Positions 1-11,354 of a stretch of DNA of 35,797 nt are shown here, piece after piece (within the stretch, counting starts at the first letter, position 1; each line of letters opens with the position of its first letter). This DNA comes from a virus (lineage: Duplodnaviria; Heunggongvirae; Uroviricota; Caudoviricetes). The notes beneath the pieces were generated by a model, which ran no database searches, was not told the DNA's origin, and worked only from the letters and a program-made list of their open reading frames with translations. The position numbers and the translations under genes were made by a program. Where the stretch lies: the IMG/VR virus record IMGVR_UViG_2563366950_000001; one strand, 5' to 3'.

Positions 1-1032
1 TCAAAAAATTCCTATTGATGTTGGTAGTGTTGCCAGCGGATTAAACCGTAATGCAGTTTCCAGGTGATCCGGTGCCAGATGTGCGTAACGCATAGTCATT
101 TTTATGTCGTGATGTCCGAGGATTTTTTGCAAAGCAAGGATATTTCCACCCGACATCATGAAATGCGCTGCAAACGTATGGCGCAGAACGTGTGTCAGTT
201 GACCGCGAGGGAGCACGATAGACGTTTTTTCCATCACGGATAAAAATTGAAAATAGCAGTCTGTAAAGAAATTGAACCCATCAAGCGCCATGATCTCTTC
301 GTAAAGCTCTTTACTGATAGGGATGCTTCTGTTTTTCTTCCCCTTCGTTCTTACAAAGGTAATTCGGTATTTGGTCACTTGCGAGCGGGTAAGATTTATT
401 GCTTCTCGCCAGCGTGCGCCTGTGCTTAGGCATATCTTGACTACCAGTGCCAGAATTGGGTCCTGACGTTTGCAATCAGCCAGCAGTTCAACAATCTGCT
501 CATGGGTAAGCCATGCCATCTCTTTTTCTGCGATGGTGAATTTTCGCATGTTCTCCAGTGGGTTCGGATACGACCATTCGCCCAGGCGGGATAGTTCGCT
601 AAAAACACTACTTAGATAGCTTTGCTCCAGGTTAATGGTGACCGGGCTTGCTCCTTTCTTCCATTTCTCGCTGAAGTAGATCTCACCTGTCAGGCGTTTA
701 TCTCGATAGTGGGCAAACATTTTAGAGGTTAGATCAGTTGCAAGGGGATTGCCCAGAGCGTCAACCATCAGCAGCAATTTGTCATAGACATGCTGCCCAG
801 CAGTCAGTGATTTACCATGTAGTTTGAACCATAGCTCAACCACGTCTTTCAGTGTTCGACGATCCACTGATTCACCCAGCCAGGGCTTTGCTTCGGTTTC
901 TTCCATCGTGTGACGCTCAAAAGCCAGTGCTTCGCCTTTGGTGGCGAATTGTTTACGCACACGACGCCCACTACGTCCGGCGGGGTAACATTCGCAAAGC
1001 CATTTTCCTGTGGTGAGTTTTCGTACAGCCAT
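1..1032 (-). CDS. int: P2/186-family tyrosine integrase (site-specific recombinase)
   Basis: 343-aa ORF ending exactly at window start. The C-terminal region carries the tyrosine-recombinase signature (HVLRHTFA...HHDIKMTMRYAHL). It sits at the prophage end next to the repressor, as in P2/186. Confidence 0.93.
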   Translation of the reverse strand: MAVRKLTTGKWLCECYPAGRSGRRVRKQFATKGEALAFERHTMEETEAKPWLGESVDRRTLKDVVELWFKLHGKSLTAGQHVYDKLLLMVDALGNPLATDLTSKMFAHYRDKRLTGEIYFSEKWKKGASPVTINLEQSYLSSVFSELSRLGEWSYPNPLENMRKFTIAEKEMAWLTHEQIVELLADCKRQDPILALVVKICLSTGARWREAINLTRSQVTKYRITFVRTKGKKNRSIPISKELYEEIMALDGFNFFTDCYFQFLSVMEKTSIVLPRGQLTHVLRHTFAAHFMMSGGNILALQKILGHHDIKMTMRYAHLAPDHLETALRFNPLATLPTSIGIF

Positions 1033-1118
1033 AAAAAATGCCCTCCAATAGAGAGCATTTTTACTGTATGCATAACCAGTGTCAATGTATGTTTATGTAT
1101 TTTACATACATCACTTAT

Positions 1119-2090
1119 TTAATCGGAGGATTTTTCTGAATGAGAAGGTTTGATTTTTTCTTTCGCGGTAGACCATAGCGTTTGGAAACTTGGCGGATAA
1201 TCCATTTGATCAGAAAAAGCAGAATCTCCAGACATGTTCCAGTCCTTAAATACCTGAATAGCATCTTCTTTGGTCGCAGTCGAACCGTAAATTTGTAGGA
1301 AGACTTGACCAAACATTAAGGCATGCCTTCTGTCTTTTCTGCGAATGGACTCATGAGTATACTTTTTGGAGATACTCAGACAGATATAAGAAAGCCATGA
1401 TAAAATGGAAATTCCAATCAGGCCTCTGGTGAATAGATAAAATAGTTCAAATCCTTTAGCATTTATGAAATCAGTAACAAAATATAATGATATGAACGAA
1501 AAAATGACAGCGGAAAGACCGGCTATTGCACCAGCAATAGCCCATGTTTTGGCGAGTGAAATAAAGTGATCATCATCATCACCTAAATCATCTTTTACAC
1601 TATTGACATATTCGGGAATTTTTTGATCAATTCTCTCTTGATGTGCTCGACTGGTTAATTCGTTATTTGAAGCCTCTAACTCTTTTATCCTAGAAAAAGT
1701 TTGCTCAAGTAAAGATTCTTTTTCTATGTTTAAATTTTCTAACTCTTTGTTTTTTAATGATAATGAGGTGTTGCTTTCTTGCAAATCAGATAAGCGAGCT
1801 GTATAAAAACGTAATAAGTTTCTGAATTCATTATTATCTTTTTTTAACACGTTAAGTTGTAATTCAATATCTTCGTCGCTAAAGCCGACTCTATCTAAGT
1901 TTTGGAGATGGCGTCTATATTGATCCTTGAATTCTTCAATTTCACCATTTTTCAACAAGTTCTTTAGATATGTGCGTTCATGTTCAGGAAGTGGAATAGA
2001 ATCATCATGTATAAAATCAACGTATTTTTTAAACTCTGATTTGGTGATGCTGTTTTGTATTGTTTCTTTTTTGTGTTCTTTAGAGTCCAT
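1119..2090 (-). CDS. hypothetical cargo protein: N-terminal coiled-coil domain, acidic linker, two predicted transmembrane helices, short C-terminal tail
   Basis: 323-aa ORF, visibly AT-rich. Heptad-like, charged N-terminal half (KNKELENLNIEKESLLEQ...), then DDLGDDDDH, then hydrophobic stretches WAIAGAIAGLSAVIFSFISLYFV and LIGISILSWLSYICLSI. Same strand as the repressor, 12 bp downstream of its stop codon. I recognise no family. Confidence 0.7.
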   Translation of the reverse strand: MDSKEHKKETIQNSITKSEFKKYVDFIHDDSIPLPEHERTYLKNLLKNGEIEEFKDQYRRHLQNLDRVGFSDEDIELQLNVLKKDNNEFRNLLRFYTARLSDLQESNTSLSLKNKELENLNIEKESLLEQTFSRIKELEASNNELTSRAHQERIDQKIPEYVNSVKDDLGDDDDHFISLAKTWAIAGAIAGLSAVIFSFISLYFVTDFINAKGFELFYLFTRGLIGISILSWLSYICLSISKKYTHESIRRKDRRHALMFGQVFLQIYGSTATKEDAIQVFKDWNMSGDSAFSDQMDYPPSFQTLWSTAKEKIKPSHSEKSSD

Positions 2091-2102
2091 GATAAGTCCA
2101 AA

Positions 2103-3029
2103 TTAAATGTTTTTAATGAAAGCACAGTGGCATTTTGCTAAAAGTTTTATATTCTCAATGTCACATATGAAATCAGCATGAGTAGATATTACTTTAACTT
2201 TTCCTACGGGTATGCGGACCAATGTTCTAATGTTTATTTTGCCTTCAATTTCTACTAACCATTCACCATCAGATATTTCTTTATATCCATAGTCTACTAC
2301 GAAAACATTTTCGCTATCGATCACAACCTGCGGATTTATAAGGTTGTGTGGTATTAAAGATTTATCAAAGTGGATATAGTCCGCATCTATTAACTTACCA
2401 TTTATTAGCTTATATGCTAATAACTTTGCTACATCAGTATTTACATCGTTCGATTTTGAGCCTTTTCCAGTAACGAGCCAATCTAGTGATATACCAGTTT
2501 CAAGTGCGCATTGGATAATCCAATCGGCTGGAAATGTATCCCTCATATAACGATTAGCTAGTGTGCTTTTTGAAATACCCAAATGATCAGCTAAAGCTTG
2601 TCTTGTCTTAAATCCATAGGCTGCAACGATTCGCTCTATTGCTGCTTTTCCGTTTTGATTTATAGTAACAGTGTTCTCATTTGGGTTTTTAGGTTCTCTG
2701 TTGAGGTGCCGAGATTCACTGTTACAATTGTCGTGACTTTTATCTGCAAAGCTTTCCATTTCGGTATCAGTACCAAATGCTAACCACTCAATCGATACAC
2801 CAGTTTCCATACTACAGATAACAACCCAGTCAGCTGGGAAAGTGTCACGCGCATACCTGTTCGCCATTGTGCTCTGTGATATCCCCAGATGATTGCAGAA
2901 TGCTTGGCGTGAAGAAAAACCATACGCTTCTAATATCCGCTCGATGACTGCTTGCCCTCCGCGATTCTGCATGATTAAGGATTTCTTTTTTTCGTCCACA
3001 TGGCGAAATGTGATTTCGTGTGTTGACAT
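2103..3029 (-). CDS. CI-type immunity repressor with tandemly duplicated N-terminal helix-turn-helix domain plus C-terminal domain
   Basis: 308-aa ORF divergent from the early operon. Two internally repeated ~60-aa segments (RILEAYGFSSRQAFCNHLGISQSTMANRYARDTFPADWVVICSMETGVSIEWL and RIVAAYGFKTRQALADHLGISKSTLANRYMRDTFPADWIIQCALETGISLDWL) resemble the 186 CI N-terminal HTH fold. Its position is that of the lysogeny repressor. Confidence 0.75.
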   Translation of the reverse strand: MSTHEITFRHVDEKKKSLIMQNRGGQAVIERILEAYGFSSRQAFCNHLGISQSTMANRYARDTFPADWVVICSMETGVSIEWLAFGTDTEMESFADKSHDNCNSESRHLNREPKNPNENTVTINQNGKAAIERIVAAYGFKTRQALADHLGISKSTLANRYMRDTFPADWIIQCALETGISLDWLVTGKGSKSNDVNTDVAKLLAYKLINGKLIDADYIHFDKSLIPHNLINPQVVIDSENVFVVDYGYKEISDGEWLVEIEGKINIRTLVRIPVGKVKVISTHADFICDIENIKLLAKCHCAFIKNI

Positions 3030-3117
3030 AACCGAATTGCGATCCTATTCTCCGAAATGTGAAGTTTAAGTCACGATTAAAACTGACTCACCACAAGCCA
3101 ATAGGAGATGTTGCATC
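3030..3117. promoter_or_regulatory. divergent lysis/lysogeny switch region (early lytic promoter and repressor promoter; operators presumed)
   Basis: 88-bp gap between the divergently oriented repressor gene and the Apl/Cox-like gene. Individual -10/-35 boxes and operators were not resolved. Confidence 0.4.
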
Positions 3118-3339
3118 ATGACCCCTAACATTTCAATAACTCTGAATACGCCACATGTCACAATCGAGCGTTATAGCGAACTTACTGGTCTTTCAATCGA
3201 CACAATCAACGATATGCTGGCAGATGGTCGCATCCCTCGGCATCGTCTTCGTAAAGACAAAAAAAGAGAAAAGGTAATGATCAACCTTGCTGCTCTTACC
3301 GTTGATGCACTTACTGATTGCAATGTTGTGTTCAACTAG
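3118..3339 (+). CDS. Apl/Cox-type excisionase / early transcriptional regulator
   Basis: 73-aa first gene of the rightward early operon. Small basic HTH-like protein ([26 protein letters not shown]). GGAG ~10 nt upstream of ATG. Confidence 0.55.
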
Positions 3340-3371
3340 TTCCATTTTGGGATACATCAGGGGTGTCGACT

Positions 3372-3881
3372 ATGTTTGATTACCAAGTTTCCAAACATCC
3401 ACATTTTGATGAAGCCTGTCGTGCATTCGCACTGCGCCACAACCTGGTGCAACTGGCAGAACGTGCAGGCATGAATGTGCAGATTCTGCGGAACAAGCTG
3501 AACCCAGCTCAACCTCATTTATTAACCGCACCAGAAATCTGGTTGCTTACCGATCTGACTGAAGATTCAACGCTAGTAGATGGTTTTCTGGCTCAGATTC
3601 ACTGCCTGCCATGCGTACCGATTAATGAGGTGGCAAAAGAGAAACTGCCACATTACGTCATGAGTGCAACCGCAGAGATCGGGCGTGTTGCAGCAGGTGC
3701 GGTATCTGGCGATGTAAAAACCAGTGCAGGTCGTCGTGATGCTATCAGCAGCATTAACTCTGTAACACGACTGATGGCGCTGGCCGCTGTTTCATTGCAG
3801 GCTCGTTTACAGGCTAATCCTGCGATGGCGAGTGCAGTTGATACCGTGACTGGCCTCGGTGCTTCATTCGGTTTGCTGTGA
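3372..3881 (+). CDS. cII: CII-type lysogeny-establishment activator (186 CII-like)
   Basis: From internal ATG at 3372 the product starts [45 protein letters not shown]..., matching my recollection of 186 CII; ~169 aa. Confidence 0.8.
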
Positions 3882-3888
3882 GGTGCTT

Positions 3889-4089
3889 ATGCTGACGAAA
3901 GAACCATCATTTGCATCGCTGCTGGTAAAACAAAGTCCGGCAATGCACTACGGTCACGGCTGGATCATGGGTGAGGATGGTAAACGCTGGCATCCGTGCC
4001 GTTCACAAGATGAATTGCTGGCAGAACTATCTACGAAAAAACAGGGGAACAAATGGCTATTGAAGGCGCTGCGGCGACTGTTCCATTAA
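3889..4089 (+). CDS. small early phage protein (in the position of 186 fil)
   Basis: ORF with GAGGTG RBS just upstream of ATG at 3889; 66 aa. Function not recognised. Confidence 0.45.
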   Translation: MLTKEPSFASLLVKQSPAMHYGHGWIMGEDGKRWHPCRSQDELLAELSTKKQGNKWLLKALRRLFH

Positions 4090-4394
4090 GCCCCGGTGAA
4101 CGCCTGAACGGACTTAATCACATTGCGGAATTAAGGGCGAAAGTATTTGGCCTGAATATTGAGTCAGAGCTTGAGCGGTTTATTAAAGATATGCGTGATC
4201 CACGGGATATCAATAATGAACAAAATAAACGGGCACTGGCTGCCATATTCTTTATGGCAAAAATCCCAGCTGAACGTCATAGCATCAGCATTAATGAGCT
4301 GACCACTGACGAAAAGCGGGAGCTGATTAAAGCAATGAATCATTTTCGTGCAGTGGTGAGCTTATTTCCCAGACGGCTAACCATGCCGAATTAA
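4053..4394 (+). CDS. hypothetical early phage protein
   Basis: 113-aa ORF in the early operon, overlapping the previous ORF by 37 bp. Confidence 0.5.
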   Translation: MAIEGAAATVPLSPGERLNGLNHIAELRAKVFGLNIESELERFIKDMRDPRDINNEQNKRALAAIFFMAKIPAERHSISINELTTDEKRELIKAMNHFRAVVSLFPRRLTMPN

Positions 4395-4455
4395 CCAACT
4401 AATGAAATTCATGGCGTAAACCCGCCGGGCATCCCTTTATCTAAATTCAGGAGAA

Positions 4456-4695
4456 TTGATTATGCGTAATATTGAAACCCTCACGACTAAAACCGGACCG
4501 GATGATGCAGGGCTTAATATTTTACTGACAGAGGCTCGTCTGGAAGAACGCCGGGCAAGGGCTGAAGCAATGGCAGCTCGCCTTGATAGCCTGGCGTGTC
4601 ATATCACATCCCGCCAGCTAAACCACGTCGAAGCAGCAGAACTGCTGCGTGTGACTGCTGAAGCAATCCAGAACGAAGCGCAGGAGATCCACTGA
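4456..4695 (+). CDS. hypothetical early phage protein
   Basis: 79-aa ORF with AGGAG upstream; its stop overlaps the start of the next gene. Confidence 0.5.
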   Translation: MIMRNIETLTTKTGPDDAGLNILLTEARLEERRARAEAMAARLDSLACHITSRQLNHVEAAELLRVTAEAIQNEAQEIH

Positions 4696-4922
4696 TGGCT
4701 GATGCAATGGATCTCGTACAGCAGCGCGTTGAAGAAGAACGCCAGCGTCATATCCGTACTGCCCGCGCCAAAACGCCGGGCGTGTCCCGCGTGCTTTGCA
4801 TTGAGTGTGAAGCACCAATTCCGCCAGCACGACGTCGCGCCATTCCGGGTGTGCAGCTTTGCATTACCTGTCAGGAAATCGCAGAGCTGAAAGGCAAACA
4901 TTACAACGGAGGTGCTGTATGA
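4695..4922 (+). CDS. TraR/DksA-family C4 zinc-finger protein
   Basis: 75 aa with CxxC...CxxC (CIECEAP...CITCQE), the typical phage TraR-like zinc finger; translationally coupled to neighbours. Confidence 0.75.
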   Translation: MADAMDLVQQRVEEERQRHIRTARAKTPGVSRVLCIECEAPIPPARRRAIPGVQLCITCQEIAELKGKHYNGGAV

Positions 4923-5776
4923 GCACCATCCTGAAATGGGCGGGTAATAAAACCGCCATTATGCCAGAACTGAAAAAATACCTTCCTGCTGGCCCGCGAC
5001 TGGTTGAACCTTTCGCGGGTTCTTGTGCTGTGATGATAGAGACGGATTACCCCAGCTATCTTGTTGCGGATATCAATCCTGATTTAATCAACCTCTATAA
5101 AAAGGTTGCTGCTGATTGCGAGGCGTTTATATCTCGTGCCAGAGCTTTATTTGAGGAAGCAAACAGGGAGGTGGCTTATTACAACATAAGGCAGGAGTTT
5201 AATTACTCCACTGAAATTACTGATTTCATGAAAGCGGTATATTTCCTGTATCTCAATCGTCATGGTTACCGTGGGTTATGTCGCTATAACAAGAGCGGGC
5301 ATTTCAACATTCCCTATGGGAATTATAAAAATCCGTATTTCCCTGAAAAAGAAATTCGCAAATTTGCAGAAAAAGCCCAGCGAGCAACGTTTATCTGCGC
5401 CAGCTTTGATGAAACGCTGGCGATGTTGAAGGCGGGGGATGTGGTGTATTGCGATCCGCCTTATTACGGTACGTTTTCCGGCTATCACACTGATGGCTTC
5501 ACTGAGGATGACCAGTATCACCTGGCATCCGTTCTTGAACATCGATCATCTGAAGGTCATCCGGTCATTGTTTCTAACAGTGACACATCCCTGATTCGTT
5601 CGCTGTATCGCAATTTCACTCACCACTACATCAAGGCAAAACGCAGCATCGGCGTGTCGGCTGGCGAGAGTAAATCTGCAACAGAAATCATTGCTGTTTC
5701 CGGGGCGCGCTGCTGGGTGGGATTTGATCCTTCGCGTGGCGTAGATAGTTCTGCTGTGTACGAGGTGCGTGTATGA
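4919..5776 (+). CDS. dam: DNA adenine methyltransferase (Dam-like, N6-adenine)
   Basis: Starts [11 protein letters not shown] at the ATG overlapping the upstream stop. Contains the DPPY catalytic motif (CDPPYYGTF) and an N-terminal AdoMet-binding region (EPFAGSCAV). Confidence 0.85.
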
Positions 5777-8187
5777 GTCATGACGATATGAGCAACTCTA
5801 GCGGCTTTAACGAGGCCGCCGCATCATTTTCATGGAACGGCCCGAAAAAGGCCATTAACCCTTATCTGGACCCGGCGGAAGTTGCGCCGGAGTCTGCACT
5901 TTCAAACCTGATCACTCTGTATGCTGCCGATAACGAGCAGGAACAACTGCGCCGCGAGGCACTGAGTGAGCAGGTCTGGGAGCGTTATTTCTTTAATGAA
6001 TCCCGTGATCCTGTCCAGCGCGAAATGGAGCAGGATAAGCTCATTAGCCGGGCAAAGCTGGCGCATGAGCAGCAGCGTTTTAATCCAGACATGGTCATTC
6101 TGGCTGACGTCAACGCCCAGCCTTCCCATATCAGCAAGCCGCTGATGCAACGTATTGAATACTTCAGCAGCCTGGGCAGGCCAAAGGCTTATTCCCGCTA
6201 TTTGCGTGAGACGATTAAGCCATGTCTGGAACGGCTGGAGCATATACGCGACAGTCAGCTATCCACTTCTTTTCGCTTTATGGCGAGCCATGAAGGGCTG
6301 GACGGCCTGCTGATCCTGCCTGAAATGAGTCAGGAGCAGGTGAAACGCCTGTCCACCCTGGTAGCTGCGCATATGAGCATGTGCCTTGATGCAGCTTGTG
6401 GCGATTTGTATGCCACCGATGACGTTAAGCCAGAAGAAATCCGCAAGACATGGGAAAGGGTGGCAGCAGAAACCCTGCGACTGGATGTCATCCCACCTGC
6501 GTTTGAGCAACTCCGCCGGAAAAGAAACCGCCGTAAACCCGTGCCCTATGAACTCATTCCGGGTTCGCTGGCGCGTATGTTGTGTGCCGACTGGTGGTAC
6601 CGGAAATTATGGAAGATGCGTTGCGAATGGCGGGAAGAGCAGTTGCGCGCTGTCTGCCTGGTCAGCAAAAAAGCATCTCCCTATGTCAGCTATGAAGCCG
6701 TGATGCATAAACGTGAGCAGCGCCGTAAGTCGCTGGAGTTTTTTCGTTCTCATGAACTGGTGAACGAAGACGGCGACACGCTGGATATGGAAGACGTGGT
6801 AAACGCCAGCAGCAGCAACCCTGCACATCGCCGCAATGAGATGATGGCCTGTGTTAAAGGTCTGGAGCTTATCGCGGAAATGCGCGGTGACTGCGCCGTT
6901 TTCTACACCATCACCTGTCCGTCACGTTTCCATTCCACGCTCAATAACGGCAGACCAAACCCAACCTGGACAAATGCGACGGTAAGACAAAGCAGCGATT
7001 ATCTGGTCGGCATGTTTGCTGCATTTCGTAAGGCGATGCACAAAGCCGGGTTGCGCTGGTATGGCGTGCGGGTGGCTGAGCCGCATCATGACGGTACGGT
7101 TCACTGGCACCTGTTGTGTTTCATGCGCAAAAAAGACCGCCGTGCCATTACTGCATTGTTGTGTAAGTTTGCCATCCGTGAAGACCGCGAGGAACTGGGT
7201 AATAACACTGGTCCACGCTTTAAATCTGAGCTGATAAACCCGCGCAAAGGAACACCGACAAGCTACATCGCGAAATACATTAGTAAGAACATTGACGGGC
7301 GTGGTCTGGCTGGCGAGATCAGCAAGGAAACGGGTAAATCCCTGCGTGATAACGCTGAATACGTTAATGCCTGGGCGTCTCTGCATCGTGTTCAGCAATT
7401 CCGCTTCTTTGGTATTCCGGGGCGTCAGGCTTACCGTGAACTGCGATTGCTGGCTGGTCAGGCGGCAAGGCAACAGGGCGACAAAAAAGCAGGTGCGCCG
7501 GTACTGGATAACCCGCGCCTTGATGCCATCCTGGCTGCTGCTGATGCTGGTTGTTTTGCCACTTACATCATGAAGCAGGGTGGCGTACTGGTTCCCCGCA
7601 AATATCACCTCATCAGAACTGCTTATGAAATTAACGAAGAGCCGACCGCCTATGGCGATCACGGCATTCGTATTTATGGCATCTGGTCACCCATTGCAGA
7701 GGGCAAGATCTGCACTCATGCAGTGAAGTGGAAAATGGTTCGTAAAGCCGTTGACGTTCAGGAGGCGGTAGCCGACCAGGGCGCTTGCGCCCCTTGGACT
7801 CGTGGCAATAACTGTCCCCTTGCTGAAAATTTGAACCAACAAGCGAAAGACAAATCAGCTGATGGGGATACCAGAACGGACATCACCCGCATGGATGACA
7901 AGGAGTTGCACGATTACCTGCACAGCATGAGCAAGAAAGAGCGCCGGGAACTAGCAGCAAGGTTACGCCTGGTGAAACCGAAACGGCGTAAAGACTACAA
8001 ACAGCGAATTACAGACCATCAGCGACAGCAGCTCGTCTATGAACTGAAGTCCAGAGGATTTGATGGCAGCGAGAAAGAGGTCGATTTACTCCTTCGCGGC
8101 GGCAGTATTCCGTCAGGAGCAGGCCTGCGTATCTTCTATCGGAACCAGCGTCTGCAGGAGGATGATAAATGGCGGAACCTGTATTAA
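5773..8187 (+). CDS. A: replication initiation protein gpA (rolling-circle nicking endonuclease)
   Basis: 804-aa ORF. Contains an HxH-type metal motif (TVHWHLLCF) and the tyrosine-containing segment YIAKYISKN, as in P2 A. Confidence 0.9.
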
Positions 8188-8256: not shown

Positions 8257-8297
8257 TTTACATCAGTAAGATTATTATATACTGTAAATATAAACAG
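8257..8297 (+). promoter_or_regulatory. putative sigma70 promoter (TTTACA ... TATACT) overlapped by a LexA/SOS box (CTGTAAATATAAACAG, 8282-8297)
   Basis: Perfect CTGT-N8-ACAG with an AT-rich spacer, flanked as tACTGT...ACAGtg (consensus TACTGTATATATATACAGTA). Lies in the gap after gene A, upstream of the small ORF and the DinI-like gene. Confidence 0.55.
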
Positions 8298-8340
8298 TGG
8301 TTATAAACACAGTATTCCGAGTGGTGTTATAGGAGGAAAG

Positions 8341-8529
8341 ATGCAGGACTATTTTTTGGAGTCTTTGAAGCTCCAGCGCATTGATTTTTTTCTTAAGCTT
8401 GTAGCGGCTAGTGAGTGTAGTGATGAAGAGAAGGGGCTGGCTTTGCAGTGGGTATCTGAACTGACTGATGAACTCATGGCAAAAATCAGAACCCACGAAT
8501 ACAACCGCTCAATGGATGTCATCAGTTGA
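8341..8529 (+). CDS. small hypothetical protein (first gene of the putative SOS-controlled operon)
   Basis: 62 aa from the ATG at 8341, which is preceded by AGGAGG; the longer ORF-track start at 8239 lacks an RBS and would overlap the LexA box. Confidence 0.4.
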   Translation: MQDYFLESLKLQRIDFFLKLVAASECSDEEKGLALQWVSELTDELMAKIRTHEYNRSMDVIS

Positions 8530-8539
8530 GGTGACTTTT

Positions 8540-8773
8540 ATGCGCATTGAAATAATGATCGATAAAGAGCAGAAGATTAGTCAGTCTACCCTGGACGCCC
8601 TTGAAAACGAGCTTTACCGCAATCTGCGCCCCCTGTATCCCAAAACGGTAATTCGTATCCGCAAAGGTAGCTCTAACGGTGTGGAACTGACCGGGCTGCA
8701 ACTGGACGAAGAAAGAAAACAAGTGATGAAAATTATGCAGAAGGTGTGGGAAGACGACAGCTGGTTACATTAG
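8540..8773 (+). CDS. DinI-family protein (Tum-like antirepressor module candidate)
   Basis: 77 aa from the ATG at 8540, after a GAGGTG RBS. Size and the acidic C-terminus (MKIMQKVWEDDSWLH) are typical of DinI-like proteins. Confidence 0.75.
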   Translation: MRIEIMIDKEQKISQSTLDALENELYRNLRPLYPKTVIRIRKGSSNGVELTGLQLDEERKQVMKIMQKVWEDDSWLH

Positions 8774-9197: not shown

Positions 9198-9980
9198 ATG
9201 GGACCCTTAGTTATCATGGTCGTCCTGGTTTGCGGGTTCTGGTACACCGAAAATCATTACCAGTCCCGCATCAGGCAAGCAAGAAGTAATGGTTGGAATT
9301 CCTATTTTTATGTAGCTATGCATGGTTGTAAGTTTGCTATTCAGGGGTTTACTCTGATGGCTGTTACATTCGTTATCTTGCTAGTTATAAGCTCAGTTAT
9401 CAATGTTTTTGGTTATTTTTGGCCTAAGTTACATGTGGACTTTTATTCATGGCTCACAGACGTAAAGATAATGTCTTACCCATTGTTCTTTGTGTTGTCT
9501 ATGCTGCTTGCGGTGTTTATTGCTTATGACCAAGGTAACAATGCGCGAAGAGCAATAGAAAACGAAGAGATTCGTCAATCTGCATATCGCGAGATGGCAG
9601 CTCAAGATGGAATTGAGTCACTGTTAGTTCAGGCTATAGATGAAGGTAAGCTCATCTTTGTTACGCTAAAATCCAGAAAAGTTTACATTGGTTACGTAGC
9701 TGCTCCTCGGATGGAGCATCAGGAAACTCAGCATCTGGCTCTCATACCATACATCAGTGGTTATCGTGATAAAGATACGCTCAGATACCATGAGCAGCAT
9801 CGTTACTATGAACTTTACCTTAGTAAAAATATTACAGCAGACTCAACTCCACTGAACTTAAATCATTTTAGGCATGTAATCCCAATGGATCAGGTTGAGA
9901 GTATTTCAATATTTGATACTGAAACTTATAAATCTTTCGAAGATTTTTCTACGCCTGACCAGACCAAAGTCACTGCATGA
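9198..9980 (+). CDS. hypothetical membrane protein (3 predicted N-terminal TM helices plus ~150-aa soluble C-terminal domain)
   Basis: 260-aa ORF, AT-rich. Hydrophobic segments LVIMVVLVCGFWY, LMAVTFVILLVISSVINVFGYFW and LFFVLSMLLAVFIAY. Translationally coupled to the upstream small ORF. Confidence 0.7.
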   Translation: MGPLVIMVVLVCGFWYTENHYQSRIRQARSNGWNSYFYVAMHGCKFAIQGFTLMAVTFVILLVISSVINVFGYFWPKLHVDFYSWLTDVKIMSYPLFFVLSMLLAVFIAYDQGNNARRAIENEEIRQSAYREMAAQDGIESLLVQAIDEGKLIFVTLKSRKVYIGYVAAPRMEHQETQHLALIPYISGYRDKDTLRYHEQHRYYELYLSKNITADSTPLNLNHFRHVIPMDQVESISIFDTETYKSFEDFSTPDQTKVTA

Positions 9981-10199: not shown

Positions 10200-11354
10200 G
10201 TGATGTTTGTAAAAAATAACTTTAATACAAATAATTTCGATGCGGAATTAGTTGAAGCGATTGGTAATAGGCTGGAAAACAACCAATTTTCGGATGCAAT
10301 ACTTGCAGGAACCAAATATCTAACAACTTTGCTGCGTGAAAAAGGGCAATGTGAAGGGGATGGGGCTCAGCTTGTTGGTACTGTTTTGGGTGGACAATCA
10401 CCTAGAATCCAAATTAATAGTCTTCAATCTGTATCAGAGCAGGACGAACAGCGCGGATTTGAAGCACTATTAAGAGGCTACTATCAGTGTATAAGAAATC
10501 CAAGGACACATGACAATTTCCCTGATACAGAAGATTCCTGCATGAGAATATTGATCATGTTGGATACTTTTATTAAGTATTTAAAAAGAGATGTTGCTGA
10601 GTTCGATTACACAGCAATTCTTGAAAGAATTTATGAGGTTCACTTTGTAAATAATTCTGATTATGCAGAAGCTTTAATATCACAAATTCCAGAAAAAAAA
10701 CTACTGGATTTTTTCCAAAGTTTAATTTCTCGCTTTAATGAAAGGCCAACCAAGGAAATTGATTCTATATTCAAAGCAATAAACCAACGCTTTTCAGGAG
10801 AGGAAGAAAAAGCCGCAATGCGGTTGCTAGGTGATGAGTTACGCAAGGCTAGCAATAATGTTGAGTTTGCTAATGTATTTAGAATAATTAAGCCGAGCGC
10901 ATGGAGAAATCTTCCTGATGATGTTTTAATTAGAATGGAAAATATAATCATCGAAGAGTGCAAAAAAGGATATTTGGATTTCTATTCTGATGCGACCAAA
11001 GGAGCTATAGGAACATGGGGTAATACATTTGGTAGCAAATTTAAAAGAAGAGGTGATCTTGGTGATGCTTTAATTGGATTGTTATATGATAGTTGGTATA
11101 CGCAAAATTATGTTGCGAAATATTACGTTTTTTCAATCCCTTCTATCATTACTGATGATGTGAAAGTTAAGGAGTTAGCTGATGCTTTAGCTTATGCCAC
11201 CATTGTAAATGGTGCTAAGCTTTTACGAACAAAATTGATTGATGCATGTAAAAATTATCCTGATAAGTTGAAAGAGCATCTTAGGGATGCTGTTCAGCAA
11301 CGGATGGATAGTGATAAAAAATATGCGGAAGAATTATTAGGTCAAATAAGCTGA
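10200..11354 (+). CDS. hypothetical protein with HEPN-like N-terminal domain (Rx4H motif); candidate abortive-infection RNase
   Basis: 384-aa ORF, strongly AT-rich, GGGGAG RBS. N-terminal domain contains CIRNPRTHDNFPD (Rx4H), which I associate with HEPN/TIGR02391-like families. C-terminal ~250 aa unrecognised. Confidence 0.7.
   Translation: MMFVKNNFNTNNFDAELVEAIGNRLENNQFSDAILAGTKYLTTLLREKGQCEGDGAQLVGTVLGGQSPRIQINSLQSVSEQDEQRGFEALLRGYYQCIRNPRTHDNFPDTEDSCMRILIMLDTFIKYLKRDVAEFDYTAILERIYEVHFVNNSDYAEALISQIPEKKLLDFFQSLISRFNERPTKEIDSIFKAINQRFSGEEEKAAMRLLGDELRKASNNVEFANVFRIIKPSAWRNLPDDVLIRMENIIIEECKKGYLDFYSDATKGAIGTWGNTFGSKFKRRGDLGDALIGLLYDSWYTQNYVAKYYVFSIPSIITDDVKVKELADALAYATIVNGAKLLRTKLIDACKNYPDKLKEHLRDAVQQRMDSDKKYAEELLGQIS

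What the first reader, a model, noticed from the sequence alone, without database searches (positions are those of the whole stretch)
2103..3029. Immunity repressor with a tandemly duplicated DNA-binding domain
The 308-aa repressor contains two ~60-aa HTH repeats that are clearly paralogous, separated by a low-complexity linker and followed by a single C-terminal domain. Typical 186-type CI has one N-terminal domain, as I recall. Two HTH units per monomer would change operator geometry and may define a new immunity specificity.
Basis: seen in the sequence. Interest (0 to 1): 0.5.

Follow-up and report, generated by a model that had tools for sequence, protein, structure and literature searches.

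The report
Two-headed 186-type prophage immunity repressor
The repressor of this E. coli CFT073 P2/186-like prophage really has two DNA-binding heads, but they come from two different repressor lineages fused together rather than from a local duplication, so the protein may recognise two phage types at once.

Summary
The 308-aa ORF at 2103-3029 (-) has two PF07022 helix-turn-helix domains (aa 22-87 and 124-192), a disordered ~35-aa linker, and one 186-CI C-terminal domain. The window is prophage phi-b0847 of E. coli CFT073.

- **Not unique.** Phage PsP3, Klebsiella phages and many prophages share this architecture, but I found no paper that describes it.
- **Not a local duplication.** Head 1 is 83% identical to the head of single-headed repressors. 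Head 2 is 86% identical to the head of another single-headed type. The two heads are 63% identical to each other. A decaying copy of that second type's operator survives in the linker codons.
- **Operator layout unchanged.** Three 11-bp repeats sit at -20, +9 and +29 from the pR -35, exactly as in single-headed head-1-type phages.

I infer that head 1 controls the resident switch. Head 2 is under strong purifying selection but has no cognate site at pR. My favoured, untested reading is a bispecific repressor that also silences a second immunity type. Supporting this, 17 complete E. coli genomes carry such a gene as a second repressor behind an ordinary cI. This is a new variant of a known kind, of moderate interest.

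The parts
2103..3029 (-). cI gene of prophage phi-b0847 (308 aa plus stop), a two-headed 186-family immunity repressor
   Evidence: ORF list; Pfam 2x PF07022 + PF16452; 100% match to E. coli CFT073 909332-915331, annotated 'phage repressor protein CI'
2967..3029 (-). N-terminal extension, aa 1-21 (MSTHEITFRHVDEKKKSLIMQ). Its codons overlap the pR -35 and operator O1
   Evidence: The extension is present in all head-1-type CIs, single- or two-headed. Synonymous divergence here is only 0.34, against about 0.7 elsewhere in the gene. The reverse complement of codons 1-3 (ATGTCAACA) contains TTGACA.
2769..2966 (-). Head 1 (NTD1, aa 22-87), recognition helix SQSTMANRY
   Evidence: phmmer domain bounds; helices 25-85 in the AF2 model; 83% and 73% identical to the heads of the single-headed CIs of L078 and L021; dN/dS 0.05
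2661..2768 (-). Inter-head linker (aa 88-123): low complexity, predicted disordered, hypervariable
   Evidence: pLDDT below 50 for aa 89-122; dN/dS 0.70; no sequence conservation in alignment A1
2676..2688 (+). Fossil of the S-type operator O1 (CTCATTTGGGTTT) inside the linker codons (NPNEN)
   Evidence: S-type PWM score is 12.6 bits here. At the same place it is 17.8 (L095), 14.7 (L001, L002), 14.1 (L082), 11.0 (L084) and below 10 in five other two-headed loci. Genuine sites in S-type phages score 18-20.6 bits. Codon table.
2575..2587 (-). Second weak S-type-like site (ATCATTTGGGTAT) in the head-2 codons DHLGI. Status uncertain.
   Evidence: PWM 12.3 bits. It forms a 93% inverted pair with 2677-2690 (I4). 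It is found only in the window, not in the other two-headed loci.
2454..2660 (-). Head 2 (NTD2, aa 124-192), recognition helix SKSTLANRY
   Evidence: phmmer bounds; helices 127-187; 86% identical to the head of the single-headed S-type CI of L007, and identical to it from SKSTLANRY through ETG; dN/dS 0.10
2106..2432 (-). C-terminal oligomerisation domain (aa 200-308), 186 CI CTD fold
   Evidence: PF16452 E 4.8e-29; Foldseek 2fkd_A TM 0.92, rmsd 1.6 A. E. coli relatives keep 85% nucleotide identity over the heads while the CTD is replaced.
3023..3051 (+). Candidate lytic promoter pR: TTGACA (3023-3028), 17-nt spacer, TATTCT (3046-3051)
   Evidence: Best promoter match in the region, 10/12. Same position relative to cI and apl as the annotated pR of phage 186. 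Conserved in all related loci.
3003..3013 (+). Candidate operator O1, GCGAAATGTGA, 20 bp upstream of the -35 and inside cI codons 6-9 (ITFR; the longer invariant stretch ATGGCGAAATGT is the reverse complement of the TFRH codons 7-10)
   Evidence: ATGGCGAAATGTG is invariant in 10 two-headed loci, third codon positions included. It has decayed (GGCTAAATTTTA; protein KFSH) where the gene is no longer next to pR, in L083.
3032..3042 (+). Candidate operator O2, CCGAATTGCGA, in the pR spacer
   Evidence: Exact pattern match; offset +9 in all loci. It is more variable: some relatives have TCTTTATGYGA, which resembles the spacer of S-type phages.
3052..3062 (+). Candidate operator O3, CCGAAATGTGA, directly after the -10
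   Evidence: Exact pattern match; offset +29 in all loci, including the single-headed L021 and L078
3118..3339 (+). apl/cox-like gene (73 aa), first gene of the lytic operon
   Evidence: ORF. Its counterpart in related E. coli prophages is a single protein accession (WP_000188448.1) in both single- and two-headed loci. It is a positional equivalent of 186 apl.
3372..3881 (+). cII (PF06892 Phage_CP76)
   Evidence: Pfam E 4.4e-42. The ATG at 3372 gives the same 510-nt length as the annotated cII genes of relatives.
8280..8773 (+). Probable SOS induction module: LexA box TACTGTAAATATAAACAGTG (8280-8299), a 62-aa ORF (8341-8529) and a DinI-like ORF (8540-8773)
   Evidence: Sequence; PF06183 DinI E 6.8e-23; 41% identity to the C-terminal half of 186 Tum. 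The layout matches the LexA-controlled p95-tum of 186 and the split tumA/tumB of PsP3. The 62-aa ORF has no detectable similarity to the Tum N-terminal half or to TumA.

Best explanation
The gene is the immunity repressor of the 186-like prophage phi-b0847. It is a composite of two repressor lineages. The first part is the head of an 'N1-type' CI, together with its 21-aa N-terminal extension and its own pR operator set. It is fused through a disordered linker to an essentially complete 'S-type' CI: N-terminal arm, head, hinge and oligomerising C-terminal domain.

**Shown here.** The architecture; the separate ancestry of the two heads; the fossil S-type operator in the linker codons; the identical operator motif and spacing in single-headed N1-type phages; and purifying selection on both heads.

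**Inferred.**
1. Head 1 binds the three 11-bp repeats (C/G)CG-WWW-TG-Y-GA that flank and fill pR, and so shuts off the lytic operon. Cooperativity would come from the S-type C-terminal domain, which in phage 186 builds a wheel of seven dimers.
2. Head 2 keeps S-type DNA specificity (CTCAyTTGGGTAC-like sites). Such sites are absent from the resident pR, so head 2's main targets lie in trans. The lysogen would then also repress superinfecting S-type 186-like phages. In other words, this would be a bispecific immunity repressor.
3. The fusions arose from prophages carrying two cI genes in tandem. Deletion then joined the upstream head to the downstream gene.

The confidence given (0.6) is for the composite-repressor account with head 1 serving the resident switch. 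The trans (bispecific) role of head 2 on its own I put at about 0.35-0.4.
For: **Architecture and family.**

**Separate ancestry of the two modules.**
- Aa 1-96 are 71% identical to aa 1-96 of the 207-aa single-headed CI of L078. Aa 114-307 are 48-50% identical to aa 5-198 of the 198-aa S-type CIs of L007 and L088.
- Head-level identities are 83% (head 1 vs L078), 86% (head 2 vs L007) and 63% (head 1 vs head 2).
- In a 167-domain set, 46 of 47 first heads have another first head as nearest neighbour. Second heads intermingle with single heads.
- The S-type CI starts MSTSKYPNEIKINPNQGGKAAIERLV, and these codons carry its operator O1. The two-headed proteins keep KxPIExxINxNxGGKAAIERLV at the end of the linker. 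The embedded operator scores from 17.8 bits down to below 10 across lineages.

**Resident operators belong to head 1.**
- The motif sits at offsets -20, +9 and +29 in 10 two-headed and 2 single-headed N1-type loci.
- No S-type site of 10 bits or more lies at pR in any two-headed locus, against 18-20.6 bits in S-type phages.
- The same rule holds in a second, independent fusion. In L096, whose head 1 is T-type, O1 is AGATCACACCATGCAAAC, next to AGATCACACCATGTATAC in the single-headed T-type L012.

**Head 2 is functional.**
- dN/dS is 0.10, against 0.70 for the linker.
- S153, S155, T156, R160 and Y161 are invariant across 39 proteins.

**Recurrent and modular.**
- Different head combinations occur, and even reversed order (P0045 vs P0032).
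- PsP3 cI has two heads, as do at least 8 further 50%-identity clusters.

**A trans-acting role is plausible.**
- An intact two-headed cI sits behind an ordinary T-type cI in 17 of 5426 complete E. coli genomes, including E2348/69. There its O1 and TFRH codons have decayed.
- The 186 C-terminal domain carrying a foreign head has been crystallised as a lambda-186 hybrid repressor, 7jvt.
Against: - No binding or immunity experiment exists for any of these proteins. All operator assignments rest on position, repetition, conservation and analogy to the annotated 186 sites.
- The N1-type 11-mer is not enriched genome-wide: 8 matches against 8.4 expected. Only its clustering at pR, its conservation and the synonymous-site constraint support it.
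- The N1-type and S-type motifs share a framework (C..A..TG.G.A), and 186 CI itself has annotated sites of two sequence types. Head 2 might therefore contribute at the resident sites after all.
- O2 in some two-headed phages resembles the spacer of S-type phages, which leaves room for cis use of head 2.
- The direction of evolution for the N1 part cannot be decided: single-headed N1 forms could derive from two-headed ones by deletion.
- AlphaFold2 gives no information on how the heads are arranged (pTM 0.38).
Confidence: 0.6

Rival explanations
1. Cis cooperation. Both heads of each monomer bind the resident control region. The operators would then be compound sites read by head 1 plus head 2, or head 2 would hold the weak flanking or wrapped DNA and distal FL/FR-like sites. 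That would give a new geometry or a tighter switch.
For: - The 11-bp repeats are asymmetric and all point the same way. That would suit two unlike heads.
- O2 in L085-L087 and L090 (TCTTTATGYGA) resembles the spacer of S-type phages.
- The fossil S-type site lies about 330-350 bp left of pR, close to the distance of FL in phage 186. It is nearly intact in L095 (17.8 bits) and moderately kept in L001, L002 and L082 (FL position).
- In 186, CI protection extends over poorly defined sequences beyond the three operators (PMC3675496).
Against: - The same asymmetric repeats, at identical offsets, are used by single-headed N1-type CIs in L021 and L078. They therefore do not need a second head.
- No S-type site lies at pR in any two-headed locus, and the fossil has decayed below 10 bits in five of eleven.
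- The stretch between the -10 and the shared apl-proximal sequence is shorter (18 nt) in two-headed loci than in S-type loci (25 nt).
- No S-type site was found upstream of the late activator gene.
Confidence: 0.2
2. Passenger domain. Head 2 no longer binds DNA specifically. It is kept only because the S-type C-terminal domain needs its own head for folding, dimer packing or correct spacing of head 1 from the wheel.
For: - Head 2 and the C-terminal domain were inherited as one unit with their native short hinge.
- In the solved 186 CI dimer the heads pack in a way unlikely to allow DNA binding, which suggests structural contacts (PMC3675496).
- No strong cognate site exists in the prophage.
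Against: - dN/dS is 0.10, with the recognition helix the most invariant part of head 2. A spacer would be free to vary there.
- Plain domain swaps without the extra head are evidently viable, since the C-terminal domain is exchanged freely between relatives.
- The two-headed form has arisen or been reshuffled several times with different head pairs.
Confidence: 0.15
3. Induction tuning. One head serves as a decoy or extra docking site for the SOS-induced antirepressor, changing how easily the prophage is induced or making it resistant to other phages' antirepressors.
For: - The prophage carries a LexA box followed by a 62-aa ORF and a DinI-like ORF, at the place of 186 tum.
- PsP3, also two-headed, has a split tumA/tumB.
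- The 186 record annotates Tum as inhibiting CI DNA binding.
Against: - No evidence links antirepressor type to head number.
- The 62-aa ORF has no detectable similarity to the Tum N-terminal half or to TumA.
- The hypothesis does not explain why head 2 keeps the exact recognition helix of S-type repressors.
Confidence: 0.1

Closest known systems
Coliphage 186 CI immunity repressor (PDB 2fjr, 2fkd; Pfam PF07022 + PF16452)
   Same: Same two Pfam families. The C-terminal domain fold is the same (TM 0.92). The gene sits in the same place, between int and a rightward apl-cII-fil operon. Three candidate operators span pR. The prophage also has a LexA-controlled DinI/Tum-like module.
   Different: 186 CI has one head (192 aa); this protein has two (308 aa) joined by a ~35-aa disordered linker. 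It is only about 35% identical to 186 CI over head 2 plus the C-terminal domain. The operators are direct 11-bp repeats rather than the inverted repeats annotated in 186, such as FL and FR (TTCAC-N5-GTGAA). No convincing FL or FR equivalents were found.
Salmonella phage PsP3 cI (NP_958086, 286 aa)
   Same: An isolated, sequenced 186-like phage whose annotated immunity repressor also has 2x PF07022 + PF16452. It also has a split tum (tumA/tumB).
   Different: Only 33% identical to the window protein. Its two heads have different recognition helices (KHSVSGWVQRD and SGTISTWVRRD) and are 49% identical to each other. Its linker is shorter. The only comment found in the literature calls it 'a longer C-terminal domain' (PMC3448106).
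Single-headed N1-type and S-type CI repressors of enterobacterial 186-like prophages (loci L021 and L078; L007, L088 and L089)
   Same: These look like the two parents. The N1-type shares the N-terminal extension, head 1 and the pR operator set. The S-type shares the N-terminal arm, head 2 and the domain plan of the remainder.
   Different: Each has one head (207 and 198 aa). S-type phages have CTCAyTTGGGTAC / GTACCCAATTGGGTAC sites at pR, which the window lacks.
Engineered lambda-186 hybrid repressor (PDB 7jvt)
   Same: A foreign DNA-binding head carried on the 186 CI C-terminal domain. The window's C-terminal domain matches that chain (E 1.9e-07 by sequence; Foldseek E 6.5e-14).
   Different: It is man-made, replaces the head instead of adding one, and the head is from lambda CI.
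Monomeric mycobacteriophage repressor that reads an asymmetric site with two domains (PMC9283540)
   Same: A phage immunity repressor with two DNA-contacting domains in one chain and asymmetric operators (title and abstract).
   Different: An unrelated family. Its two domains are unlike each other and bind one site as a monomer. Here the two heads are paralogous and sit on an oligomerising domain. Membership was not considered.

Membership tests
186-type CI repressor family | N-terminal Phage_CI_repr (PF07022) helix-turn-helix domain | tested here: met
   Two copies, whole-protein E 1.9e-61, curated cut-off 22 bits, score 204.7. Both fold as five-helix bundles with block-mean pLDDT mostly in the 80s.
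186-type CI repressor family | C-terminal Phage_CI_C (PF16452) beta-domain that oligomerises | tested here: met
   PF16452 E 4.8e-29, 101 bits. Foldseek 2fkd_A TM 0.92, rmsd 1.6 A. The oligomeric state itself cannot be tested here.
186-type CI repressor family | One DNA-binding head per monomer, as in 186 CI | tested here: not met
   Two heads. This is the variant feature. It is shared by 48 of the best 120 clusters and by PsP3 cI.
186-type CI repressor family | Gene on the lysogenic strand between int and a rightward apl-cII early operon | tested here: met
   int 1-1032 (-), cI 2103-3029 (-), apl-like 3118-3339 (+), cII PF06892, Fil PF10893. Same order as the annotated 186 record.
186-type CI repressor family | Three operators spanning the pR -35 and -10 | tested here: inconclusive
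   Three 11-bp repeats at 3003, 3032 and 3052 cover the same span as the annotated 57-bp CI site of 186. They are conserved in 12 loci. Binding has not been shown.
186-type CI repressor family | Distal FL and FR operators about 300 bp either side of pR | tested here: inconclusive
   No strong N1-type site lies at those distances. The FR-zone sequence is identical in phages of different immunity types, so it is probably not CI-specific. A fossil S-type site lies about 350 bp to the left, with variable preservation.
186-type CI repressor family | Wheel of seven dimers that wraps or loops DNA | not testable with these tools
   Only monomer prediction is available. Known for 186 from PMC3675496.
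186-type CI repressor family | SOS induction through a LexA-controlled antirepressor (Tum), not self-cleavage | tested here: inconclusive
   A LexA box at 8280-8299 precedes a 62-aa ORF and a DinI-like ORF that is 41% identical to the Tum C-terminal half. The 62-aa ORF has no similarity to the antirepressor half of Tum.
LexA / lambda CI self-cleaving (peptidase S24) repressors | Peptidase S24 catalytic domain | tested here: not met
   No S24 family among the Pfam matches at E <= 0.01. Foldseek matches to LexA and lambda CI C-domains are weak (E 6e-07 and worse, 9-17% identity). One source's label, 'HTH and peptidase S24 domain', is not backed by a Pfam hit here.

The most novel reading that the evidence does not exclude
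This is a natural bispecific immunity repressor. One polypeptide on one oligomerising scaffold carries the DNA-binding heads of two heteroimmune 186-like phage groups. A single prophage gene would then both run its own switch and silence a second class of competing phages. Such repressors would be built combinatorially by fusing tandem cI genes, and the head order would record which head serves the resident operators.
Probability: 0.35. Interest if true: 0.7.

Novelty: new variant of a known kind. Interest (0 to 1): 0.5.

Why it matters
Phage immunity is usually described as one repressor matched to one operator set, with new specificities arising by co-evolution of the two. Here a well-studied repressor family (186 CI) has repeatedly acquired a second, heterologous head.

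- **If head 2 acts in trans**, prophages could widen the range of competitors they exclude without adding a new gene. Domain fusion would then be a route by which immunity groups merge.
- **Practical consequence.** This would affect how immunity groups are predicted from sequence for the very common P2/186-like prophages of E. coli, Klebsiella and Salmonella.
- **Synthetic biology.** It would offer a natural template for multi-input repressors built on the 186 wheel.
- **If head 2 acts in cis instead**, it would still add a new layer to the 186 wrapping and looping model.

Both outcomes can be tested directly with standard reporter and plaque assays, because CFT073, E2348/69 and PsP3 are all available.

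Tried and rejected
- **FL candidate at 2757-2779** (CATTTCGGTATCAGTACCAAATG, I2 and I5). Rejected. The conserved part encodes WLAFG, and the rest is not kept in relatives.
- **FR candidate at 3340-3355** (TTCCATTTTGGGATAC). Rejected as CI-specific. It is essentially identical in nine related loci with N1/S two-headed or S-type single cI genes, and diverged only in the T-type locus L083.
- **Reading O1 as the palindrome CGAAAT-GTG-ATTTCG.** Rejected. The right arm is not conserved in other two-headed loci.
- **Genome-wide enrichment of the 11-mer.** None: 8 matches found, 8.4 expected. PWM hits elsewhere (4117, 8637, 11752 and others) are at chance level.
- **Region upstream of the late activator gene** (ogr/B homologue, ATG near 32724). 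It has a GTGAA half-site after a possible -10, but no full N1-type or S-type motif.
- **Similarity of the 62-aa SOS ORF** to the 186 Tum N-terminal half or to PsP3 TumA. None.
- **Intramolecular pseudo-dimer of the two heads.** Cannot be judged. The AlphaFold2 pTM is 0.38 and the linker is disordered.
- **Three-headed relatives.** P0232 and P0260 were reported with 3 matched stretches, but Pfam shows at most two PF07022 stretches. P0250 is an unrelated multi-HTH_3 protein.
- **PADLOC on the cargo ORF 1119-2090.** No hit.
- **Literature.** Seven full-text searches found no description of a two-headed 186-type CI. The CFT073 prophage paper never mentions the repressor.
Full report
**Where the window comes from**

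Bases 1-6000 match E. coli CFT073 (NC_004431, 909332-915331) at 100%. This is the P2/186-like prophage called phi-b0847 (PMC3573123) or PhiECO3 (PMC3448106). The left end has the layout of coliphage 186:
- int at 1-1032 (-);
- a cargo ORF at 1119-2090 (-);
- the finding's ORF at 2103-3029 (-);
- rightward from there, an apl/cox-like gene (3118-3339), cII (PF06892), fil, DUF5347, DUF2732, a DksA/TraR zinc-finger gene, dam and the replicase.

The annotated 186 record shows the same order.

- The 308-aa protein has two stretches of PF07022 (Phage_CI_repr) and one PF16452 (Phage_CI_C).
- The internal repeat (aa 9-86 vs 111-188) has 42/78 identities and scores 246, against 26 +/- 4.6 for shuffles.
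- AlphaFold2, run with a 39-sequence alignment, gives two confident five-helix bundles (25-85 and 127-187), a linker at 89-122 with pLDDT below 50, and a beta-rich C-terminal domain. Its pTM of 0.38 means no fixed arrangement of the domains is predicted.
- The C-terminal domain superposes on the solved 186 CI C-terminal domain (2fkd_A, TM 0.92, rmsd 1.6 A).
- By sequence, solved 186 CI aligns only to the second head plus the C-terminal domain.

**The architecture is common and has gone unremarked**

- Of the best 120 90%-identity clusters, 48 have two heads. They come from E. coli, Klebsiella, Salmonella, Enterobacter, Citrobacter, Kosakonia and Edwardsiella.
- About 20 deposited Klebsiella phage genomes carry it.
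- At 50% identity the whole family is small, with 474 clusters. At least eight further clusters show 2x PF07022 + PF16452.
- The cI of the isolated phage PsP3 (286 aa) is two-headed as well, though only 33% identical to the window protein.
[quoted passage not shown] The extra length was seen, but not recognised as a second head.
- The exact CFT073 allele occurs in 7 of 5426 complete E. coli genomes. About 120 more share 80-95% nucleotide identity over the two heads with a different C-terminal domain.

**The two heads have different ancestries**

- In a set of 167 heads, first heads form their own group: 46 of 47 have another first head as nearest neighbour. Second heads are indistinguishable from the heads of single-headed CIs.
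- Single-headed CIs with a head of the first kind do exist. Examples are L021 (Enterobacter sp.) and L078 (Buttiauxella), both 207 aa, and L035.
- Window aa 1-96 are 71% identical to L078 aa 1-96, including the 21-aa N-terminal extension. Aa 114-307 align end to end with the complete 198-aa 'S-type' CIs of L007 and L088 at 48-50% identity.
- At head level the identities are 83% (head 1 vs L078), 86% (head 2 vs L007) and 63% (head 1 vs head 2).

The S-type CI begins MSTSKYPNEIKINPNQGGK, and those codons carry its first operator. The two-headed proteins keep KxPIExxINxNxGGK at the end of an otherwise hypervariable linker.

A position weight matrix built from S-type operators scores 18-20.6 bits at pR of S-type phages. 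At the linker end of two-headed genes it finds a fossil that scores:
- 17.8 bits in L095;
- 14.7 in L001 and L002;
- 14.1 in L082;
- 12.6 in the window (2676-2688);
- 11.0 in L084;
- below 10 in five others.

So the second head and the C-terminal domain were once a free-standing S-type cI gene that abutted its own pR. Other two-headed lineages combine other head types, and even in opposite order. P0045 has a T-type head first, while P0032 has it second. Fusion has therefore happened, or been reshuffled, more than once.

**The operators at pR**

The best promoter match is TTGACA (3023-3028), a 17-nt spacer, then TATTCT (3046-3051). The start codon and codons 2-3 (ATGTCAACA) are the reverse complement of the -35 region.

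Three direct copies of (C/G)CG-WWW-TG-Y-GA lie at 3003, 3032 and 3052. They span what the 57-bp annotated CI site spans in 186. The motif is not enriched genome-wide (8 matches, 8.4 expected). The case for it rests on three things:
- **Clustering and position.** The offsets are invariant at -20, +9 and +29 in 10 two-headed loci.
- **Nucleotide-level constraint.** ATGGCGAAATGTG is invariant even at third codon positions. Synonymous divergence in codons 1-21 is 0.34, against about 0.7 elsewhere.
- **Decay where it is not needed.** O1 has degenerated in the one lineage where the gene is no longer next to pR (L083).

Decisively, the single-headed N1-type phages L021 and L078 have the same motif at the same three offsets. 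The second head has therefore not changed the resident operator layout, and the resident specificity goes with head 1.

The same rule holds in an independent fusion. L096, whose first head is T-type, has an O1 nearly identical to that of the single-headed T-type L012. It probably also holds for L093 against L019.

No S-type site of 10 bits or more lies at pR of any two-headed locus. None was found upstream of the late activator gene either.

**Is the second head functional?**

Pairwise Nei-Gojobori estimates over nine two-headed genes give these dN/dS values:

| Region | dN/dS |
|---|---|
| Head 1 | 0.05 |
| Head 2 | 0.10 |
| Linker | 0.70 |
| C-terminal domain (saturated and mosaic) | 0.41 |

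The recognition helix of head 2 (SKSTLANRY) is its most invariant part. It is identical to that of the S-type single-headed CIs. That is hard to reconcile with a mere spacer.

**The tandem arrangement**

In L083, and in 17 of 5426 complete E. coli genomes including E2348/69, an intact two-headed cI sits directly downstream of an ordinary single-headed T-type cI that adjoins pR. This shows two things:
- A two-headed repressor can be carried as cargo that has no resident operators to serve.
- The kind of intermediate needed for a fusion (two cI genes in a row) does exist.

**Most likely mechanism**

- Head 1 represses the resident pR through the three repeats.
- The S-type C-terminal domain supplies cooperativity. 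In 186 this is the wheel of seven dimers (PMC3675496). The solved lambda-186 hybrid 7jvt shows a foreign head carried on this scaffold.
- Head 2 retains S-type specificity and acts mainly in trans on superinfecting S-type phages, which are common in E. coli.

The first two points are reasonably supported inferences. The third is a hypothesis, to which I give about 0.35-0.4.

The rival readings are:
- **Cis use of head 2.** The spacer site O2, the wrapped DNA and the fossil site at an FL-like distance leave room for this.
- **A structural passenger.**
- **A role in antirepressor-mediated induction.** The prophage has a LexA box (8280-8299) followed by a 62-aa ORF and a DinI-like ORF that is 41% identical to the C-terminal half of 186 Tum. 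PsP3 has the same split layout.

**Verdict**

The feature is real and correctly located. It belongs to the 186 CI family, except that it has two heads per monomer, and that variant turns out to be widespread. The 'tandem duplication' and 'altered operator geometry' readings are not supported. The fusion origin and the head-1 rule are new observations as far as the searched literature shows.

Novelty: a new variant of a known kind. Interest: moderate (0.5). It would be higher if bispecific immunity is demonstrated.

Noticed in passing
L083 2116-3659 (E. coli PCP06171); same junction in 17 complete E. coli genomes including E2348/69 (NC_011601 855862-856362): Two cI genes lie in tandem on the lysogenic strand. 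A 189-aa single-headed T-type cI sits next to pR, and 50 bp downstream is an intact 307-aa two-headed cI whose O1/TFRH codons have decayed (KFSH).
   Followed up: partly
window 8280-8773: A canonical LexA box (CTGT-N8-ACAG) precedes a 62-aa ORF of unknown family and a 77-aa DinI-like ORF that is 41% identical to the C-terminal half of 186 Tum. This split Tum-like SOS module resembles tumA/tumB of PsP3, but the small ORF is unrelated in sequence to either antirepressor half.
   Followed up: partly
window 1119-2090 (-), and the same slot in L082-L087, L093, L095: The slot between cI and int holds different cargo in every relative: GmrSD + HEPN, a P-loop NTPase, an ATP-dependent nuclease, AAA_15/AAA_21 + DUF4276, DUF4041 and DUF4747. 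It looks like a defence-gene hotspot. In the window it holds a 323-aa ORF with only sub-threshold Pfam matches (DUF2207_C, GAS) and no PADLOC hit.
   Followed up: partly
window 9198-9980 and 10200-11354 (+): Two cargo ORFs lie between the replicase/SOS module and the late genes. One is a 260-aa ORF with no Pfam or PADLOC match. The other is a 384-aa protein with a Hypoth_Ymh domain that matches the PADLOC models PD-Lambda-3_B (E 2.4e-14) and Aga_HEPN, so it is a likely anti-phage defence gene.
   Followed up: partly
window 3021-3029: The conserved MST start of both N1-type and S-type CI proteins is the pR -35 read backwards: ATGTCAACA is the reverse complement of TGTTGACAT. Promoter and start codon are therefore locked together, and the first operator lies inside codons 4-10.
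   Followed up: yes
L081 2111-2989 and L082 2113-3012 (RefSeq annotation): RefSeq starts these two-headed cI genes at the internal Met20 (292 and 299 aa). The upstream 19 codons are open and conserved, and in some relatives Met20 is replaced by Ile (for example L087), so the longer reading is more likely.
   Followed up: partly
window 3340-3355: TTCCATTTTGGGATAC lies at the apl/cII junction. It is nearly identical in nine related loci with N1/S two-headed or S-type single cI genes (diverged only in the T-type locus L083). It sits where 186 has FR and pE, so it more likely belongs to the CII-activated promoter than to CI.
   Followed up: partly
window 2103-2492 vs E. coli relatives (H47-H56): Relatives keep about 85% nucleotide identity across both heads, the linker and the intergenic region, but have an unrelated C-terminal domain sequence. 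The oligomerisation domain is therefore exchanged independently of the heads.
   Followed up: no
L002 (Dryocola sp. BD586) 4001-4937; P0044, P0086: Some two-headed genes are truncated or frameshifted in the C-terminal domain, leaving proteins of about 228 aa with two heads and no oligomerisation domain. They may be pseudogenes or free double-head proteins.
   Followed up: no
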